Below, in pieces: positions 1,464 through 9,929 of a stretch of DNA of 64,000 nucleotides (positions are counted from its first letter, which is position 1; each line of letters begins with the position of its first letter). The DNA lies in assembly GCA_038209015.1 (NCBI GenBank), contig JBBQYC010000001.1, positions 18,974-82,973 of the forward strand, given 5' to 3'. The DNA comes from Candidatus Saccharimonadales bacterium (GTDB lineage Bacteria; Patescibacteriota; Saccharimonadia; Saccharimonadales; JBBQYC01). A model generated the notes under the pieces. That model saw only the letters and a program-made list of their open reading frames with translations. It ran no database searches and was not told the origin of the DNA. The position numbers and the translations under genes were made by a program.

Positions 1464-2150
1464 ATGACTAAAAAACAAACATTATTTCTCGGCTTGACTC
1501 AACTAGTCCTACTAGCAGCTACTTTTTTGGTATTTTCTGCACCAAAAGTAAGTGCACAAACACCACCACAATGCCAGGGTGCGGGTTCAGCGGATGCAAT
1601 GGAAGCATGTTCGCGAAATGCTATTGAAGACGAGTGTGGAGAAGCCCCAAGTGCTGGGACGCCTATTCGGCAAGCTGAGGCTTATGAAGAGTGTAGGCGC
1701 AGTACTACTTCAGGTGATAGCGATAATGATGGTATCTCCGACGAAATTGAGGAAATATGTGGAACGCCCACGAATGACTCCCAGTCCCAAGGCTTCGATG
1801 CATGTCGACAACAAGTTGAAGCAGGTACCCACCCATCACAACAACAATCAACAGGAGGATCGAACGAAACTGTTCAAAGTACTGGCAGTCTAGACGGCGA
1901 CTGCAAGGATATTAATGACTGCAAGATAATCGGATATCTGCGTGACTTCATCAATCTCTTATCCGTAGTTGTAGGTATAGTCGTTGCGATAATGATAGTG
2001 GTGGGCGGTATTCAGTACAGCGCTTCACGGGATAATCCACAGGCAACGGCAGCGGCGAAACAACGGGTCACAAACGCTGTCATAGCACTTGTTGTCTACG
2101 TGTTTATATTCGCTATACTTGAATACTTGGTCCCTGGAGGTGTGTTCTAA
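1464..2150 (+). CDS. VirB2/TrbC-like pilin-type protein A: signal peptide, 10-Cys acidic ectodomain, C-terminal helix-loop-helix module
   Basis: N-terminal signal peptide (MTKKQTLFLGLTQLVLLAATFLVFSAPKVSA). C-terminal LLSVVVGIVVAIMIVVGGIQY-loop-VTNAVIALVVYVFIFAIL, shared with the five downstream paralogs. Confidence 0.6.
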   Translation: MTKKQTLFLGLTQLVLLAATFLVFSAPKVSAQTPPQCQGAGSADAMEACSRNAIEDECGEAPSAGTPIRQAEAYEECRRSTTSGDSDNDGISDEIEEICGTPTNDSQSQGFDACRQQVEAGTHPSQQQSTGGSNETVQSTGSLDGDCKDINDCKIIGYLRDFINLLSVVVGIVVAIMIVVGGIQYSASRDNPQATAAAKQRVTNAVIALVVYVFIFAILEYLVPGGVF

Positions 2151-2536
2151 TGCTACAGACTCTTACTCGATTTGCAGCCACCTGTCAGGATCTCGGCGGC
2201 AGCTTACCAGATAGAATATATGGTATCCCAACATGGTATAAGTATTTGCCATCGGAAGATGTTGCGGGTAAATGCTCACCTGTCATAGATTTGAGTGGCG
2301 ATGGTCAAGCGTCGGTGATTGCAATATTGTTAGCCGTATTCGATATACTGATATTTTTTGCAGGTCTCATTGCTGTAGGGTACGTTATATTCGGGGCTAT
2401 TCAGTTTATGGTGAGCCAGGGTGAGCCAGATAAAATCAAGAACGCTCGAAACACTGTTATGAATGCGCTCGTCGGACTTGTGCTTGTTCTGGTCTCAACC
2501 GTCGTCGTTAATCTAATAGGAAACACTCTTACATGA
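2150..2536 (+). CDS. VirB2/TrbC-like two-TM paralog B (no signal peptide)
   Basis: Overlaps the upstream stop (TAATG). Two hydrophobic helices separated by SQGEPDKIKNARNTV, the same loop motif as the paralogs. Confidence 0.55.
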   Translation: MLQTLTRFAATCQDLGGSLPDRIYGIPTWYKYLPSEDVAGKCSPVIDLSGDGQASVIAILLAVFDILIFFAGLIAVGYVIFGAIQFMVSQGEPDKIKNARNTVMNALVGLVLVLVSTVVVNLIGNTLT

Positions 2537-2820
2537 AATTTTTAGCGCAGTTTACAAAAGACGATTTCCCATCCATTCCAGACGCACCCGACCCAACCAA
2601 AGGCTTACCTCTAGCTGACGCTATGCAACTCATCTTTGGAATAATTGGAGTGATTGCAGTCGTGATGATAATGGTCGGCGGCTTTAAGTACATTGCATCA
2701 CAGGGTAATCCGCAAGAAACAGCCAAAGCAAAAAATACTATTTTGTACGCGGTCATAGGTCTTGTGCTCGCAGCCAGCGCATTTACCATTGTTTCGTTCA
2801 TAGTGGAGACAGCCAAATGA
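2533..2820 (+). CDS. VirB2/TrbC-like two-TM paralog C (short, no signal peptide)
   Basis: ATGA overlap with B. Contains IGVIAVVMIMVGGFKYIASQGNPQETAKAKNTILYAVIGLVLAASAF. Confidence 0.55.
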   Translation: MKFLAQFTKDDFPSIPDAPDPTKGLPLADAMQLIFGIIGVIAVVMIMVGGFKYIASQGNPQETAKAKNTILYAVIGLVLAASAFTIVSFIVETAK

Positions 2821-3230
2821 TTCGGTTAGCGCTAATGGCGACATTTATGGCATTATTTTGCGTGTTTCAGTTTGCGACTGTACCTGCTGCGGCAGAAGTG
2901 CTTGATCCTGCATGCGACATTACCACCACTGACGAGAACGGTAAGCAGATAAAGTCCCCTTTGTGTCCCGATGAAAACGAAACCATAGATGATAATTCCC
3001 TGTTCGGCCCAGGCGGTATAGCCACGCGACTCGTTAACCTGTTCTCATACATTATTGCTATTGCTGGCGTGATAGTAATCATCATCGGTGGATTCAAATA
3101 TGTTATATCGTCGGGCGACCAACAAAACATAAATAATGCCAAAAACACCATTTTGTACGCAGTCATAGGACTGGCAATAGCCGCTGTTGCCCAATTATTT
3201 GTCAGATTTGTGTTGTATAATATTAAGTAA
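2817..3230 (+). CDS. VirB2/TrbC-like pilin-type protein D (signal peptide + small Cys ectodomain)
   Basis: ATGA overlap with C. Signal peptide MIRLALMATFMALFCVFQFATVPAAA. Contains IAIAGVIVIIIGGFKYVISSGDQQNINNAKNTILYAVIGLAIAAVAQL. Confidence 0.6.
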   Translation: MIRLALMATFMALFCVFQFATVPAAAEVLDPACDITTTDENGKQIKSPLCPDENETIDDNSLFGPGGIATRLVNLFSYIIAIAGVIVIIIGGFKYVISSGDQQNINNAKNTILYAVIGLAIAAVAQLFVRFVLYNIK

Positions 3231-3250
3231 GCAATTAAAAGGATATCTAT

Positions 3251-3673
3251 ATGCAAAAAATAAAACAGTTTTTATCAACATCATTGAACGCGAGCCTAAT
3301 AGCTATGCTGCTTGCTTTTGGAGTTATCGCAATGGCAAGCGTGCCAGTAAATGCGCAAGCCGATGAAATATGTAAAGGTGTCGGTTACGTTGACAATGAC
3401 CCTAATAAAACCGAATGTGACGCAAGTGCGGACGGTACGGTTCGGAAAGTCGTCAAACTAGTCATAAATGTGTTTAGCTGGATAGTTGGAATTATCTCTG
3501 TCATCATGATTATCATCGGTGGACTTAAGTACATTACTTCGACTGGTGAAAGCAGCAATATTAATAGTGCCAAGAACACGATACTCTATGCCATCATCGG
3601 TTTAGTAGTGGTTGCCTTAGCTCAGATTATTGTTCTATTCGTTCTTGGTAGCGTGGACAGTCAGACTTCATAG
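3251..3673 (+). CDS. VirB2/TrbC-like pilin-type protein E
   Basis: Signal peptide ending VNAQA. Contains IISVIMIIIGGLKYITSTGESSNINSAKNTILYAIIGLVVVALAQI. Preceded by RBS-like aaagga. Confidence 0.6.
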   Translation: MQKIKQFLSTSLNASLIAMLLAFGVIAMASVPVNAQADEICKGVGYVDNDPNKTECDASADGTVRKVVKLVINVFSWIVGIISVIMIIIGGLKYITSTGESSNINSAKNTILYAIIGLVVVALAQIIVLFVLGSVDSQTS

Positions 3674-3745
3674 CGGATAGCTAAGAGTTGTCATCAGAGT
3701 TCTATCTGTGATATAACACCTATAAATCAATAAGAAAGGTTTTCA

Positions 3746-4162
3746 ATGTTAAAACGAATTAAATCAACGCTCACCAGCTTGTTGCTCAGTTCTATGTTCT
3801 TCCTACCAATGGCCGTACCAGCGACTGTTGCCGCCCAGGATCTCGTAGACTGTGAAGGAATTCAGGGCTGTTTAACTGAAGGTGCAGATAAAACTGGCGA
3901 TGCCACAGCTGACGAGGCTGGCACGCAGGTAAACAATATTGTGCGTTTAGTCATTAACACCTTTTCATGGGTTGTTGGAATCATCTCTGTCATCATGATT
4001 ATCATCGGTGGACTTAAGTACATTACCTCCGGTGGTGAAGGTAGCAATATCTCCGCAGCCAAAAACACGATACTCTACGCCATCATCGGTTTAGTCATTG
4101 TGGCACTTGCTCAGATTGTAGTTCAGTTCGTACTAAAGAACGTTACTGATTCCTCTGTCTAA
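3746..4162 (+). CDS. VirB2/TrbC-like pilin-type protein F (recent duplicate of E in the C-terminal half)
   Basis: Signal peptide ending TVAAQ. C-terminal module nearly identical to E at both protein and nucleotide level. Confidence 0.6.
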   Translation: MLKRIKSTLTSLLLSSMFFLPMAVPATVAAQDLVDCEGIQGCLTEGADKTGDATADEAGTQVNNIVRLVINTFSWVVGIISVIMIIIGGLKYITSGGEGSNISAAKNTILYAIIGLVIVALAQIVVQFVLKNVTDSSV

Positions 4163-5777: not shown

Positions 5778-5870
5778 GGAGAGGTACCCAAGTGGCTGAA
5801 GGGGCGGCTTTGCTAAAGCTGTAGGGGGGCGCAAGTCCCCGCGAGGGTTCGAATCCCTCTCTCTCCGCCA
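5778..5870 (+). tRNA. tRNA-Ser (anticodon GCT), long variable arm, CCA encoded
   Basis: GGAGAGG acceptor stem. Anticodon stem-loop CGGCT-TTGCTAA-AGCTG. Long extra arm. T-arm GAGGGTTCGAATCCCTC. Confidence 0.85.
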
Positions 5871-6024
5871 GGAAAGGAGTGGTCATGGGTAGTATGGCCC
5901 TTCTTTCCTAGAGAATTTTGAACACAAGGTTCGATAATCGAATGATATTTATACTGAAGTCAAAATTGCCAATTTTCTAAGATAAAACAGTTTTGGCTTG
6001 AAGTATTAGCCCTCTCTGCCGATG

Positions 6025-6378
6025 CTAGTCCATATTTATTCTATGTATTTCTTTCGGTATTACTGATCTACGATTAGCCAAACACATTTTTATGAGAAAT
6101 TCTTCGTCTTTCGGCTTATAAATATATAACCAGTCATACTCGTTGATAGCTGACTTCTTGATAACATACCCTTTTGAATTTGAATGAATTTTCCGTAGGT
6201 CTACTTCTTTGCCTCCAAAATACTTAACCTGCACCCGCCATAAACCCAATGAGTCATCAACGATAAGATCATAGGCTGCAGATTCCGTAAGGGGTAGCGA
6301 AATATCGAAACCCATTTTAGTAAATGTAGCAATAGCTTGTGTTACGGCTATATCCCCTTTTCGTTGAGTCGGTCTCAT
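6025..6378 (-). CDS. small PD-(D/E)XK-like nuclease-fold hypothetical protein
   Basis: Motif AYDLIVDD...LWRVQVKY fits the D-x(n)-(E/Q)-x-K nuclease core. Sits between two tRNA-Ser genes. Confidence 0.4.
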   Translation of the reverse strand: MRPTQRKGDIAVTQAIATFTKMGFDISLPLTESAAYDLIVDDSLGLWRVQVKYFGGKEVDLRKIHSNSKGYVIKKSAINEYDWLYIYKPKDEEFLIKMCLANRRSVIPKEIHRINMD

Positions 6379-6444
6379 AGGTAAATAGTAACATTAAACG
6401 GTTTAGTATACCGTTGATTTTTTATGATATAATTTTACGCTATT

Positions 6445-6534
6445 GGAGAGATGACCGAGTGGTTGAAGGTACTTGTCTTGAAAACAAGCGTGCCCGCAAG
6501 GGTACCGTGGGTTCGAATCCCACTCTCTCCGCCA
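6445..6534 (+). tRNA. tRNA-Ser (anticodon TGA), CCA encoded
   Basis: GGAGAGA acceptor. Anticodon stem-loop CTTGT-CTTGAAA-ACAAG. Long variable arm. T-arm GTGGGTTCGAATCCCAC. Confidence 0.85.
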
Positions 6535-6543
6535 AGAAGAAAA

Positions 6544-6565
6544 ACTCACTCCAGTGAGTTTTTTA
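6544..6565 (+). terminator. rho-independent terminator after tRNA-Ser(TGA)
   Basis: ACTCACT-CC-AGTGAGT hairpin followed by TTTTTT. Confidence 0.6.
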
Positions 6566-6614
6566 ATTTCGTTACTTATGCATCGTAGGGGTTTTGTAGT
6601 CAACTTGGTACAAT

Positions 6615-6932
6615 ATGCTTATGTCCAGTAGTGAGCTCTCTGCAATGTTCTGTTATGTATATCTCCTTCGATCTGAGATGAGCAATAATTGGTATGTCGG
6701 TTTTACTAACGATTTACGCAAAAGATTAACAGAACACAACAATGGCTTGAATCGTTCAATAGCCCATGGTAAACCGTGGGTATTTGAATACTACGAGGCG
6801 CATCGGAATGAGACTGATGCACGAAGGCGAGAGAATTATCTTAAAACCAGCGCTGGTCATCAGACACTACGTAGAACGTTACGCGAACAACTAAGCCGCC
6901 GCGATTCAAGCCGGCAGAAAGTCTACTACTAG
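6615..6932 (+). CDS. GIY-YIG nuclease family protein (UPF0213-like)
   Basis: YVYLLRSEMSNNWYVGFTNDLRKRLTEHN matches the GIY-YIG core (Y..Y..G...NL..R...H). The probable start is the internal ATG (MFCYVYLL, ~6645). Confidence 0.7.
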   Translation: MLMSSSELSAMFCYVYLLRSEMSNNWYVGFTNDLRKRLTEHNNGLNRSIAHGKPWVFEYYEAHRNETDARRRENYLKTSAGHQTLRRTLREQLSRRDSSRQKVYY

Positions 6933-6934
6933 GT

Positions 6935-7555
6935 ATGCAACCAGGGGAAACAATCACACCGGGACAGACAACTGAACCATCTGGCGAAACCGAACAGAAG
7001 TTTCGCTACAGTGCAGAACCTGCTAACCCGCAACCATCCCCTACTCCAGTGCCTCCTACACAAAGCCCAGCACAACCAGAAGCGATATATGAACAAGCTA
7101 CTTTAGCCGAGTGGAGTGCTTCAGAATATATAGATCATCATAAATCCATAGAATGGTACGCGGTTCTAGTCTTAGCTTCGGTATTACTAGGCGGGTTGCT
7201 GTATCTTGTAACGCGTGACTGGATAAGCGTCGTCGTGGTTCTGCTAGCTGCTGGCATGTTCGGAATCAGTGGCGCCAAAAAGCCACGAACTCTCACATAT
7301 AGGATTACGGAGAGTGGCGTCCAGGTAGCGGGAAAACTGTATCCATATGAAGATATAAAAGTGTTCTCTGTGGTTAATGAGGGTGGTGTTAGCTCAATTC
7401 AACTCCTACCTCTCCGTAGATTTATGCCACCACTAAGTATTTACTATCCACCAGATATGGAAGAGCCTATATTTAATGCTTTAGCTAACTATCTCCCACA
7501 CGAAGAGAATAAACATGACCCCGTAGACCGTCTCATGAAGCGTTTGCGATTCTAG
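6935..7555 (+). CDS. hypothetical membrane protein, Pro-rich N-terminus, two TM helices
   Basis: ORF with PTPVPPTQSPAQP low-complexity and TM segments (WYAVLVLASVLLGGLLYLV; SVVVVLLAAGMFGI). Confidence 0.5.
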   Translation: MQPGETITPGQTTEPSGETEQKFRYSAEPANPQPSPTPVPPTQSPAQPEAIYEQATLAEWSASEYIDHHKSIEWYAVLVLASVLLGGLLYLVTRDWISVVVVLLAAGMFGISGAKKPRTLTYRITESGVQVAGKLYPYEDIKVFSVVNEGGVSSIQLLPLRRFMPPLSIYYPPDMEEPIFNALANYLPHEENKHDPVDRLMKRLRF

Positions 7556-7996: not shown

Positions 7997-8083
7997 TTAT
8001 TCAATAGTAGCACGACAAAATAAAAAGCCATCTTTCGACAGCTTTTGAATACATTTGGTACAGCATTATATACGAAGTTAGAA

Positions 8084-8320
8084 CTATTTTGGCTCTTGAA
8101 TGTCGCCTTCTAGAATGTATGTAGTTTCTACCTGGGCTTGTCGCATAAAAGGCTTTTCAGCTTGTGGCAGTACGGTCTCTAGTAGCTGTCTAGCAGCACT
8201 CAATTTTCTCGCAACTTCTATAACTTGGTCGGGTGGAGTATCAATAGGAACTCTAAGAGGGTCTCTACCGACTTCTTGAACCACATTTAGACCTTCTCTT
8301 GATTTCCTGAACATACTCAC
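8084..8320 (-). CDS. hypothetical protein (78 aa)
   Basis: ORF only. Located 45 nt downstream (minus sense) of repeat copy 1. Confidence 0.35.
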   Translation of the reverse strand: MSMFRKSREGLNVVQEVGRDPLRVPIDTPPDQVIEVARKLSAARQLLETVLPQAEKPFMRQAQVETTYILEGDIQEPK

Positions 8321-8367
8321 AGTTTAGCACTAAGCATCCAATCAAATGCGAACAAAACACCAAACAA

Positions 8368-8460
8368 GATTCAAACTCGTTTCAAGATGATAAAAAACAG
8401 CTAACAAAAAAGAGATTGAAACTGACTTCAATCTCTATCTGTAATTTCACTCTGGTACAC
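8368..8460. repeat. ~93-bp direct repeat copy 1; contains a minus-strand rho-independent terminator hairpin and an 8-10-nt fragment identical to the tRNA-Arg 3' end
   Basis: gattcaaactcgtttcaa...acaaaaaagagattgaa-actgac-ttcaatctctatctgtaatttcactctggtacac aligns to 9269..9360. The 3' 50 nt are nearly identical. GAGATTGAA/TTCAATCTC is a perfect 9-bp inverted repeat followed (minus sense) by TTTTTT. Confidence 0.8.
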
Positions 8461-8511
8461 GGTAATAAAGGAAGTTCAAACTGCTATAAACAGCTTGGTA
8501 GTTGCCTGAAA

Positions 8512-9216
8512 TTATTTTTTAGCTTTATGCCTTATATCATTCTTTGTTTCTTTTTGGGTAACTGCATCAGCAAGATTAACATTCAACCTATTGGCTAAAT
8601 GCACGAGGTATAGTTGCACATCTGCAAGCTCGTCTAATACAGAAACGTTTTCATAGCCTTCATCACGATTAAGCCCTTCGTTTTTACGAATTGCACGTGC
8701 TAACTCACCAATCTCCTCTGTAAGAAGCAACATTGTGTCTCTTGCGGATTCTTCTGCCCAGCCCCTACGTTTAGATATTCTTGCATAGTAGCTTTGCAGA
8801 CCATTTATTCCGTGTCCTGGTTTGTGAACTCTTTCCTGTACATCAGTGGGGCTTTTAACAACTTCTGTAATCATTTTTTCTATCAAAGGGTCAACAGGCT
8901 TTTCATCTGTATAAACGGGTATGCCAAGGGAGTGAGCATTGCCGATTTCAAAAGCCGCACTTAAGCCGACGTAACCAGAAGGAGCAAACAGCCACACGAA
9001 ATCTGCGTCACGCATTGCAGCAAGCAGCCGTTCTTCAATGGTGACAATATCATCATCTAGCTCGTGCTGTGCTCTCACAAAGTCTGCTTTTGGCTCAGTA
9101 AAATCTATGCTCTTAGGGCAAAGAATATCAAAATCAACAGACAAGCTTTCGTATAGCCGCCTAAGCTTCTCTTGTTCCTTTCGGAAGGTACCTATTAAAA
9201 CGACGCTTTTTCGCAT
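8512..9216 (-). CDS. fusion protein: N-terminal nucleoside 2-deoxyribosyltransferase-like (Rossmann-like) domain + C-terminal MazG-like nucleotide pyrophosphohydrolase domain
   Basis: N-terminal half FVWLFAPSGYVGLSAAFEIGNAHSLGIPVY (deoxyribosyltransferase-like). C-terminal half LLLTEEIGELARAIRK...DELADVQLYLVHLANRLNVNLADAV (MazG/NTP-PPase helices with EExxE/D motifs). Confidence 0.6.
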   Translation of the reverse strand: MRKSVVLIGTFRKEQEKLRRLYESLSVDFDILCPKSIDFTEPKADFVRAQHELDDDIVTIEERLLAAMRDADFVWLFAPSGYVGLSAAFEIGNAHSLGIPVYTDEKPVDPLIEKMITEVVKSPTDVQERVHKPGHGINGLQSYYARISKRRGWAEESARDTMLLLTEEIGELARAIRKNEGLNRDEGYENVSVLDELADVQLYLVHLANRLNVNLADAVTQKETKNDIRHKAKK

Positions 9217-9268
9217 AGTTCTATAGTAGCAGTTCAGCCATGACCCTCATGCACTCAGACACCAGGCA

Positions 9269-9360
9269 GGATTCAAACTCATTTCAAAGTGTTAATCTCT
9301 GACCAACAAAAAAGAGATTGAATAGGGCTTCAATCTCTATCTATAATTTCACTCTGGTAC
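9269..9360. repeat. ~92-bp direct repeat copy 2; overlaps the 3' terminal 6 nt of tRNA-Arg and contains its downstream terminator hairpin
   Basis: See copy 1. GAGATTGAA-TAGGGC-TTCAATCTC hairpin at 9314..9337 with a T-run on the minus strand. Confidence 0.8.
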
Positions 9361-9431
9361 ACCCGGCAGGATTTGAACCTACGACCTTCTGTACCGCAAA
9401 CAGACGCTCTATCCAGCTGAGCTACGGGTGC
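9355..9431 (-). tRNA. tRNA-Arg (anticodon GCG by my folding; CCA encoded)
   Basis: The reverse complement GCACCCGTAGCTCAGCTGGATAGAGCGTCTGTTTGCGGTACAGAAGGTCGTAGGTTCAAATCCTGCCGGGTGTACCA folds as a 77-nt cloverleaf. Acceptor GCACCCG/CGGGTGT. Anticodon loop TTGCGGT. Confidence 0.8.
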
Positions 9432-9929
9432 GCGTCAGAGTGAGGCTTTTGACTCGCTCTGACGCGCCAAGCACGCAGAGTCTCATCTTGTAGCTCTCCC
9501 TCCTCCTTTCTAGTTTTTTTAAACAGCCGAGCCCGCAAAGCCGACTCCTTGGTTTAAAAAAACTGATTCAGGGCAGTTAGACTGCCAGAAACAGGGGTGA
9601 TTGTAGCATATGGCTGAGTATAGTGCCAGAGGCAGCGTAAAACTGTTGGTTTTGTGTCTCAGTCACCATTAATAACCATAATAGTGTTAGATTGATTATA
9701 GAACTTATAAAAAATATAGGGTATCGTGCTAATTGAAGGGAGACTTCGGGTTATGGTACACAAAAAATTTATTCCGCGTTATTACGTGCGAGATAGCGAA
9801 ACGCAAGAACTGTGGTGTTTTACTGCGCCAGCCATCGCTGGGAAATAACGGAAGTTATAATTATTGGCTTTTGATGGTTCAGTACTTTGTGCTGAACTCG
9901 GTTTGGTCTGCTGCTACTATGTATTGCAT

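What the first reader, a model, noticed from the sequence alone, without database searches (positions are those of the whole stretch)
8368..9431. ~93-bp direct repeats, one overlapping the tRNA-Arg 3' end, bracket a single-gene cassette (att-like signature)
Copy 2 (9269..9360) overlaps the last 6 nt of tRNA-Arg and extends ~86 nt downstream of it. Copy 1 (8368..8460) lies ~900 bp away and ends in tggtacacgg. This reproduces the terminal 8 nt of the tRNA (GTGTACCA) outside any tRNA. Each copy contains the same terminator hairpin GAGATTGAA-N6-TTCAATCTC plus T-run in the minus-strand sense. The hairpin arms and the distal 50 nt are near-identical. An internal ~18 nt has diverged. The only gene between the repeats is the MazG fusion. 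Duplication of a tRNA 3' segment flanking inserted DNA is the classic footprint of site-specific integration at a tRNA. No integrase is present here, so this may be a decayed element or a cassette exchange site.
Basis: seen in the sequence. Interest (0 to 1): 0.65.

Follow-up and report, generated by a model that had tools for sequence, protein, structure and literature searches.

The report
tRNA-end repeats bracketing a MazG cassette
A single nucleotide-cleaning gene sits just after a tRNA-Arg gene between two 104-base copies of the tRNA's tail and terminator; this is the scar of DNA insertion at a tRNA, seen here in an unusually small form with no integrase gene nearby.

Summary
The repeat is real. 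8357-8460 and 9259-9362 match at 84/104 positions without gaps (blastn E 2.5e-19). It is the only non-coding direct repeat in the window. It is 104 nt, not ~93, and it covers the last 8 nt of tRNA-Arg(GCG), not 6. Only the deoxyribosyltransferase-like/MazG (dCTP-pyrophosphatase-like) gene lies between the copies.

Comparison with other genomes favours insertion over local duplication:
- An 88%-identical MazG in another metagenome shares DNA with the window only from the ATG to exactly ...GTGTACCA, in a different context.
- A 64%-identical MazG sits after tRNA-Pro with the same layout, built from tRNA-Pro sequence.
- A homolog of the next gene (76 aa) is bracketed by 3' fragments of yet another tRNA.

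No integrase was found among the 40 window ORFs I tested or next to any related copy. I found no strict empty site and no phage counterpart.

Best reading (~0.55): a small integrase-less, CIME-like cassette inserted by one crossover at the tRNA-Arg 3' end, in a hotspot of repeated integration. Interest is moderate.

The parts
9355..9431 (-). tRNA-Arg (anticodon GCG), CCA encoded; 3' end ...GGTTCAAATCCTGCCGGGTGTACCA
   Evidence: ARAGORN; Rfam tRNA 65.4 bits
9259..9362 (-). Direct repeat copy 2 (next to the tRNA). It holds the last 8 nt of the tRNA, a 76-nt spacer with the terminator, and a tRNA 3' fragment.
   Evidence: 84/104 identical to copy 1, E 2.5e-19
9355..9362 (-). Core octamer GTGTACCA inside the tRNA; left edge of the repeat and candidate crossover region
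   Evidence: a 19-nt perfectly identical block starts here
9307..9338 (-). Intrinsic terminator of tRNA-Arg: AGAGATTGAA-GCCCTA-TTCAATCTCT followed by TTTTTT
   Evidence: scan; fold
9252..9278 (-). T1: degenerate tRNA-Arg 3' fragment (GTTTGAATCCTGCCTGGTGT--CTGAGTG), running from the T-loop to just past the 3' end
   Evidence: family D2; (p<0.0003)
8512..9216 (-). Cargo gene, 234 aa: N-terminal nucleoside 2-deoxyribosyltransferase-like part fused to a C-terminal MazG / dCTP-pyrophosphatase-1-like domain
   Evidence: Pfam PF03819; PDB DCTPP1/RS21-C6 matches; PF05014 on some homologs
8477..8497 (-). Hairpin in the MazG 3' UTR. It is part of the cassette shared with L013.
   Evidence: homology to L013
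8357..8460 (-). Direct repeat copy 1 (distal): GTGTACCA, a 76-nt spacer with the terminator, and tRNA 3' fragment T3
8453..8460 (-). Octamer GTGTACCA outside any tRNA. Homology to the 88%-identical cassette in L013 ends exactly here.
8405..8436 (-). Intrinsic terminator now serving MazG: AGAGATTGAA-GTCAGT-TTCAATCTCT followed by TTTTTT
8357..8376 (-). T3: more decayed tRNA-Arg 3' fragment (GTTTGAATCTTGTTTGGTGT), homologous to T1 through the repeat
   Evidence: D2, D3. Not significant on its own against the tRNA.
8084..8314 (-). Next gene, 76 aa, no known family. Its homolog in L080 is itself bracketed by tRNA 3' fragments.
8056..8063 (-). CTGTACCA (7/8 match to the tRNA end), 20 nt after the stop of the 76-aa gene and just before a terminator (8023-8046). 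Possible further att remnant; weak evidence.
   Evidence: Not significant by the alignment shuffle test.

Best explanation
The 902-nt unit (the MazG gene plus one copy of the ~104-nt tRNA-Arg tail/terminator region) was inserted as a small circular DNA. A single reciprocal crossover took place at or next to the last 8 nt of tRNA-Arg (core GTGTACCA). The result is tRNA-attL - MazG - attR.

The site already carried an older integration scar: the tRNA terminator followed by a tRNA 3' fragment. The incoming DNA carried a diverged copy of that same region, so about 100 nt is now duplicated rather than only the core. This is what is expected if a cassette had earlier excised together with an adjacent att-flanked remnant, as in accretion and cis-mobilization of CIMEs.

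Both repeat copies now act as intrinsic terminators, one for the tRNA and one for MazG. No recombinase is encoded nearby, so the cassette is a non-autonomous, CIME-like islet. The recombinase would have to act in trans, or RecA could have acted on the ~100-nt homology.

Shown: the repeat, its anatomy, the cassette boundary, and the recurrence of the layout at other tRNAs. Inferred: the circular intermediate, the crossover point and the enzyme.
For: 1. The repeat begins 8 nt inside the tRNA, and its longest perfect block (19 nt) sits at that edge, while the rest is a mosaic that includes unrelated blocks. In L017 the perfect block (9 nt, CCCGACCAA) is also at the tRNA edge of a 68%-identical repeat. 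This fits a crossover core with flanks from two different parents.
2. L013/L014 (MazG 88% aa identity) share nucleotide homology with the window only over 9216-8453, from the ATG to the final A of GTGTACCA. After that the flanks are unrelated.
3. L017-L019 (MazG 64% aa identity) carry the same layout at tRNA-Pro(UGG): tRNA, terminator, tRNA-Pro 3' fragment (21/22), MazG, CCCGACCA plus terminator, tRNA-Pro fragment.
4. MazG lies in a different gene neighbourhood in each of the relatives whose neighbourhood was retrieved (P0002-P0005, P0008, P0014). In RAAC3_TM7_1 it sits in a dTMP-synthesis cluster, so the gene relocates.
5. In L080 the homolog of the next gene (69% aa identity) follows tRNA - terminator - exact 18-nt tRNA fragment, with no MazG, and is followed by another fragment (13/15).
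6. Copies of tRNA ends downstream of tRNAs are enriched in these genomes: 2 of 16 tRNAs, against 0.008 expected per tRNA.
7. The layout is reproduced in independent assemblies.
Against: - No tyrosine or serine recombinase was found among 40 window ORFs, nor next to L013, L016, L017 or L080.
- No strict empty site was found. All contigs from the same population carry both repeats. L080 shares only the 76-aa gene with the window, not the flanks.
- Only 8 of the 104 repeat nt lie in the tRNA. A classical attP/attB identity block runs from the T-loop or anticodon loop to the 3' end.
- The ~19% divergence between copies could also mean an old duplication in place.
- The cassette's 3' arm is not significantly conserved between the tRNA-Arg and tRNA-Pro versions.
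- No phage or IMG/VR counterpart was found. The two viral 19-mer hits lie inside an ORF and are chance matches.
Confidence: 0.55

Rival explanations
1. This is the remnant of a larger, integrase-bearing prophage or integrative element that inserted at tRNA-Arg and was then deleted down to its att-proximal cargo gene (MazG), with both att sites kept.
For: - MazG-type pyrophosphatases are common phage cargo; PHROG pyrophosphatase families match the C-terminal domain.
- In L016 about 6 kb (methyltransferase, ResIII helicase, hydrolase) lies between the orthologous tRNA-Pro and MazG, so larger islands occur at this kind of site.
- CPR genomes have a strong deletion bias (general knowledge).
Against: - It would need independent decay to exactly one intact gene, tightly bracketed (att fragments about 20-155 nt from the ORF ends), in at least three separate cases: window MazG, L017 MazG and the L080 70-aa gene.
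- There are no pseudogene debris or integrase fragments.
- It does not explain why the ~100-190 nt downstream flank is duplicated on both sides, in the window and in L017.
- The full fusion protein has no phage hit.
Confidence: 0.2
2. This is a local, non-mobile duplication. The intergenic module downstream of tRNA-Arg (terminator plus leader) was copied in place, by unequal recombination or template switching, so that both the tRNA and MazG have a terminator. No foreign DNA or att recombination was involved.
For: - Both copies are functional-looking terminators with perfectly conserved stems and free loops.
- The two spacers from GTGTACCA to the next ATG are both 138 nt, and both carry TGCTAnnnT 6 nt before the ATG.
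- The 19% divergence fits an old event.
- Every contig from this population has both copies.
Against: - L013 keeps the GTGTACCA octamer at the end of its MazG cassette although its flank is unrelated. The octamer therefore travels with the cassette and is not a product of local copying in the window lineage.
- The same architecture recurs at tRNA-Pro with unrelated sequence.
- Placing a 104-nt copy 798 nt away needs two steps (tandem duplication, then deletion).
- MazG is not at this locus in its closest relatives.
Confidence: 0.15
3. The repeat is a selected RNA or regulatory module (for example a processing or attenuation element that includes a tRNA-like piece), reused upstream of two genes. 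It is not a recombination scar.
For: - The conservation is blocky: stems, T-run and TTGAAAYGAGTTTGAATC are conserved while other blocks are unrelated.
- In predicted folds the two ends of each copy can pair.
Against: - Apart from the terminator hairpin the folds are not better than shuffles (z -2.1 and -1.6).
- No Rfam family other than tRNA matches.
- The tRNA-like piece lacks the 5' strands needed for a tRNA-like fold (my inspection of the sequence).
- The counterparts in L017 and L080 share the layout but no sequence.
Confidence: 0.05

Closest known systems
Genomic islets or islands integrated at tRNA 3' ends by tyrosine integrases (the Reiter 1989 and Williams 2002 type; from my own knowledge)
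   Same: One direct repeat copy overlaps the tRNA 3' end and the tRNA remains intact. The insert is accessory DNA. Displaced tRNA 3' fragments (T1, T3) mark earlier use of the site. The cargo occupies different contexts in relatives.
   Different: No integrase is present. The insert is a single 0.7-kb gene. Only 8 nt of the repeat lie inside the tRNA, and about 96 nt are downstream flank that includes the terminator. No empty site or excision has been shown.
CIMEs (cis-mobilizable elements) and tandem accretion at att sites (definition in PMC5704250; Pavlovic 2004 and Bellanger 2011 as cited there)
   Same: The unit is flanked by attL- and attR-like repeats and lacks integration and transfer genes. 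Units separated by att copies lie in tandem. A composite that excised with a neighbouring att-flanked remnant would explain the ~100-nt duplicated flank.
   Different: CIMEs described so far are kilobases long and derive from ICEs or IMEs of Firmicutes and Actinobacteria. No cognate ICE or IME or integrase is known here. The units are single-gene (0.3-0.9 kb) or non-coding (76-150 nt).
Prochlorococcus genomic islands with repeated tRNA 3' fragments (Coleman et al. 2006; from my own knowledge)
   Same: A streamlined genome in which a hotspot next to a tRNA holds several direct copies of the tRNA 3' end separating accessory segments. Integrases are mostly absent.
   Different: Those segments are multi-gene and tens of kb long. 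Here each segment is one gene, and the repeat includes the terminator.
Integron gene cassettes and attC arrays
   Same: Single-ORF cassettes in one orientation, each followed by a hairpin-containing repeat of about 100 nt. The shared DNA between the window and L013 starts at the ATG and ends at the 3' site.
   Different: There is no intI or attI. The attC core and inverse-core motifs (GTTRRRY / RYYYAAC) are absent. The hairpin with its T-run is an intrinsic terminator. The repeats contain tRNA sequence.

Membership tests
tRNA-targeted integrative element / genomic islet | Direct repeats flank the insert, and one copy overlaps the 3' end of an intact tRNA gene | tested here: met
   9259-9362 overlaps tRNA-Arg by 8 nt. 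8357-8460 is the second copy.
tRNA-targeted integrative element / genomic islet | An integrase (tyrosine or serine recombinase) is encoded next to one att site | tested here: not met
   No recombinase family was found among 40 window ORFs. NCBIfam, PHROGs and PADLOC gave none for the neighbouring genes. None is called next to the related copies.
tRNA-targeted integrative element / genomic islet | Variable presence: an empty site in related genomes with the same flanks | tested here: inconclusive
   Contigs from the same population all carry the insert. Relatives have MazG elsewhere. L080 shows tRNA - terminator - tRNA fragment - 76-aa homolog without MazG, but at a different tRNA sequence and with otherwise unrelated flanks.
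tRNA-targeted integrative element / genomic islet | Excision to a circle and restoration of attB | not testable with these tools
   This needs raw reads or PCR.
CIME (cis-mobilizable element) | attL and attR are retained while integration and transfer genes are lost | tested here: met
   Both repeat copies are present, and the only gene between them is the MazG fusion.
CIME (cis-mobilizable element) | Derives from, and can be mobilized by, a related ICE or IME with the same att specificity | not tested
   No such element was found in the window or in viral contigs. The rest of the genome is not available.
Integron cassette / attC | An attC site with paired inverse core RYYYAAC and core GTTRRRY flanking an imperfect palindrome | tested here: not met
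   Neither motif occurs in either repeat copy or its flanks, on either strand.
Integron cassette / attC | An intI integrase and attI at the head of the array | tested here: not met
   A tRNA gene stands at the head of the array, and no integrase was found.
Transposon / casposon-type insertion | Terminal inverted repeats and a fixed-length target-site duplication | tested here: not met
   There is no inverted match between the cassette ends beyond an 8-mer. The duplicated lengths differ: 104 nt here, about 175-190 nt in L017 and 38 nt in L013.

The most novel reading that the evidence does not exclude
Saccharimonadia (CPR) may carry arrays of single-gene, integrase-less cassettes anchored at tRNA 3' ends. 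Each cassette would end in a copy of the local tRNA's last 8-20 nt. The cassettes would be shuffled between tRNAs and genomes by an unlinked, trans-acting recombinase. This would be a functional analogue of integron or IMEX cassette capture that uses the tRNA end as the attachment site.

The reading rests on four tightly bracketed single-gene units: window MazG, the window 76-aa gene (weak), L017 MazG and the L080 70-aa gene. Two cargo families are involved, each found at tRNAs of different sequence.
Probability: 0.2. Interest if true: 0.75.

Novelty: new variant of a known kind. Interest (0 to 1): 0.5.

Why it matters
tRNA-end integration scars are textbook, so the basic reading is not surprising. 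What is less ordinary is the scale and the recurrence. Single intact genes (a dCTP-pyrophosphatase-like fusion and a 76-aa protein) are tightly bracketed by copies of whichever tRNA they sit behind, in several Saccharimonadia genomes, with no integrase in sight.

If these units really move as one-gene cassettes, that would be a simple route for gene flux in ultra-small, host-dependent, naturally competent bacteria, whose mobile-element biology is poorly known. It would also point to a recombinase and att core (the tRNA's terminal octamer) that can be tested directly. If they are only decayed islands, the locus is still a clean marker of an integration hotspot and of how streamlined genomes prune inserts down to the useful gene plus a terminator.

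Tried and rejected
- Assembly artefact. Rejected: the same layout appears in independent Logan assemblies. The odd end of L007 is a Nextera adaptor.
- Search for an empty site using exact and homologous flank proteins. This returned only same-population contigs and two distant homologs. L080 is informative but not syntenic.
- Species-representative genomes. The source species is not among the hits; only two distant loci were returned.
- Phage origin. No IMG/VR hit to the repeat core or to the MazG fusion. In the phage database only the tRNA part matches, and there is no protein hit. Viral contigs that hold the tRNA-Arg 19-mer are either real tRNA genes or, in L084/L085, a chance match inside a 1093-aa ORF.
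- Conserved cassette 3' arm shared by the tRNA-Arg and tRNA-Pro versions. Not significant (p=0.23), so I dropped the idea.
- Extension of the repeat to the start codons. Not significant (p=0.09).
- attC/integron motifs and terminal inverted repeats. Absent.
- A structured RNA beyond the terminator. Folds are not better than shuffles, and Rfam gives only tRNA.
- A possible small reverse-strand ORF in the L016/L017 MazG 3' region. I considered it by eye; the L016 copy lacks a start codon, and I did not pursue it.
- The 283-aa gene that sits with MazG in L013 as a hidden recombinase. No hit in NCBIfam, PHROGs or PADLOC, and no precomputed Pfam hit is on record for it.

Full report
**Setting.** The window (45% GC) is an ordinary chromosome segment of a Saccharimonadia-type (TM7/CPR) bacterium. 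It carries five tandem T4SS-pilin paralogs, HSP20, ComF, ValRS, TsaD, a Mur ligase, GroEL and sigma-70 factors. The closest genome-collection hit to the cargo gene is a Saccharimonadales MAG. ARAGORN and Rfam place four tRNAs in the window, among them tRNA-Arg(GCG) at 9355-9431 on the minus strand.

**The observation.** The repeat finder and blastn give a direct repeat, 8357-8460 against 9259-9362. It is 104-105 nt long, 82% identical, E 2.5e-19, with spacing 902. The gapless identity is 84/104. It is the only non-coding direct repeat of at least 28 nt in the 64 kb, and its 19-nt core occurs exactly twice against 0.01 expected.

Read on the minus strand, each copy consists of:
- GTGTACCA, which in copy 2 is the last 8 nt of the tRNA;
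- 10 bp stems AGAGATTGAA/TTCAATCTCT followed by a T-run. Both are called as intrinsic terminators. The stems are 20/20 identical and the loop differs at 5/6 positions;
- a block of about 17 nt that is unrelated between the copies;
- TTGAAAYGAGTTTGAATC...GGTGT.

The last segment is itself a tRNA-Arg 3' fragment. 9252-9278 aligns to the tRNA from the T-loop to 7 nt past the CCA with score 16, against 7.6+-1.4 for shuffles. The minus-strand layout is therefore: tRNA-Arg | terminator spacer | tRNA fragment T1 | MazG fusion (9216-8512) with its own 3' hairpin | GTGTACCA | terminator spacer | fragment T3 | 76-aa gene (8314-8084) | DUF805 gene. Independent assemblies from several sequencing runs reproduce this layout at 98.3-100% identity. 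One deviating contig end is a Nextera adaptor.

**The cargo.** The 234-aa protein has a C-terminal MazG domain (PF03819). Its closest solved relatives are dCTP pyrophosphatase 1/RS21-C6. Some homologs also hit nucleoside 2-deoxyribosyltransferase (PF05014). In RAAC3_TM7_1 the ortholog overlaps DHFR and sits beside thymidylate synthase, dCTP deaminase and thymidylate kinase. I therefore infer a nucleotide house-cleaning or dTMP-pathway enzyme. It matches no defence family (PADLOC), and the full fusion protein has no phage hit.

**Evidence that the gene was inserted here.**
- The family has 479 members at E<=1e-5. Its nearest relatives lie in different neighbourhoods.
- The 88%-identical copy (L013/L014) shares nucleotide homology with the window only over 9216-8453. 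That span runs from the ATG to the final A of GTGTACCA. Beyond it the flanks are unrelated. The octamer that equals the tRNA-Arg terminus therefore belongs to the cassette end.
- In L013 a 38-nt direct repeat (E 1.6e-6), homologous to this cassette end, flanks MazG plus an extra 283-aa gene.
- The 64%-identical copy (L017-L019) lies 280 nt downstream of tRNA-Pro(UGG) with the same four-part layout, built from tRNA-Pro sequence. The order is: tRNA, terminator, tRNA-Pro fragment (21/22), MazG, CCCGACCA plus terminator, tRNA-Pro fragment. The two flanks align at 68% over 95 nt (E 4e-7), starting exactly at the tRNA's last 8 nt.
- L016 shares that tRNA-Pro locus but has about 6 kb (methyltransferase, ResIII helicase, hydrolase) between the tRNA and MazG. 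The site is a variable hotspot.

**The neighbouring gene behaves the same way.** A 69%-identical homolog of the 76-aa gene (L080) follows a tRNA 3' end, a palindromic terminator and an exact 18-nt copy of that tRNA's end about 40 nt before its ATG. A further copy (core 13/15) lies 31 nt after its stop. No MazG is present.

In the window, CTGTACCA lies 20 nt after the stop of the 76-aa gene, just before a terminator. This is weak on its own.

Copies of tRNA ends downstream of tRNAs are enriched in the low-GC loci I collected: 2 of 16 tRNAs, against 0.008 expected per tRNA. L074 is one example, behind tRNA-Trp.

**Mechanism.** In both the window and L017 the longest perfect block of the repeat lies at the tRNA edge (19 nt and 9 nt), while the remainder is a mosaic that includes unrelated stretches. 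This fits a crossover core flanked by sequence from two different parents better than uniform decay of a local duplicate.

A single crossover between the chromosome and a ~0.9-kb circle carrying MazG plus a diverged copy of the tRNA-tail/terminator/old-fragment region reproduces the structure. Such a circle would arise if a cassette excised together with an adjacent att-flanked remnant. That is the accretion and cis-mobilization behaviour described for CIMEs (PMC5704250). The circular intermediate, the crossover point and the enzyme are inferred, not shown. RecA acting on about 100 nt of homology would give the same product.

**Weaknesses.**
- No recombinase was found among the 40 window ORFs tested or beside any related copy.
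- No strict empty site was recovered.
- Only 8 nt of the repeat lie inside the tRNA.
- There is no phage or IMG/VR counterpart.
- The cassette 3' arm is not significantly conserved between the Arg and Pro versions.
- Integron attC motifs and terminal inverted repeats are absent, and there is no evidence for a structured RNA beyond the terminator.

**Verdict.** The att-like interpretation is the best-supported one, at about 0.55 for a small integrase-less cassette. Decay from a larger element gets 0.2, local duplication 0.15 and a selected RNA or regulatory module 0.05. The kind of feature is known (tRNA-end integration scars, CIME-like islets). The single-gene scale, the nested fragments, the terminator-containing att region and the recurrence with the same cargo at different tRNAs make it a variant worth a systematic survey.

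Noticed in passing
window 9754-9761 (minus strand): A third exact GTGTACCA lies about 320 nt upstream of tRNA-Arg on the same strand. All three occurrences of this octamer in the 64 kb fall within 1.3 kb. It could be another att remnant or chance (roughly p~0.03).
   Followed up: partly
window 9430-9467 and 9512-9564: A 15-bp-stem hairpin overlaps the first bases of tRNA-Arg. A palindrome with A7/T7 arms (bidirectional-terminator-like) sits about 80 nt upstream of the tRNA (families I2 and I6).
   Followed up: no
window 9217-9258 and 8315-8356: The spacers from GTGTACCA to the next start codon are both exactly 138 nt. Both carry an extended -10-like TGCTAnnnT ending 6 nt before the ATG, which suggests leaderless transcripts for MazG and the 76-aa gene. 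The sequence similarity of these 42 nt is not significant.
   Followed up: partly
window 5778-7555: tRNA-Ser(GCT), a PD-(D/E)XK endonuclease gene, tRNA-Ser(TGA), a GIY-YIG nuclease gene and a 206-aa gene of no known family are interleaved. Small nuclease genes wedged between tRNAs look like another tRNA-linked accessory patch.
   Followed up: no
window 1464-4162: Five tandem paralogous genes with the T4SS pilin domain (PF18895). Two of them share ~83%-identical 100-nt stretches.
   Followed up: no
L017 7695-7781: An 87-nt palindrome in which the tRNA-Pro T-arm/acceptor 3' part and an inverted copy of it (AGAGGACTTGAACC) flank the terminator. L080 has the same kind of palindrome (18-41 / 47-70). 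So tRNA-end copies occur in inverted as well as direct orientation.
   Followed up: partly
L016 1902-8708: Between tRNA-Pro(CGG) and the MazG homolog lie a DUF488 gene, an N6_N4 methyltransferase plus ResIII helicase pair that looks like a restriction-modification system, and a serine hydrolase. This is a larger island at the site that holds only MazG in L017.
   Followed up: partly
L013 238-1089 (minus strand): A 283-aa cysteine-rich protein with no hit in NCBIfam, PHROGs or PADLOC (and no precomputed Pfam hit on record) shares the repeat-bounded segment with MazG.
   Followed up: partly
L032 1607-1683, L039 710-786, L037 3331-3407, and L026/L029/L031/L042/L051: More distant MazG-fusion homologs also often lie next to tRNA genes on the same strand: tRNA-Arg(TCT) 33 nt downstream, tRNA-Arg(CCT) 89 nt upstream, and tRNA-Ile(GAT) 0.7-2 kb upstream. 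No flanking repeats were detected there.
   Followed up: partly
L007 940-963: This public Logan contig ends in Nextera adaptor sequence (CTGTCTCTTATACACATCT) inside repeat copy 1. It is a contaminant, not a variant junction.
   Followed up: yes
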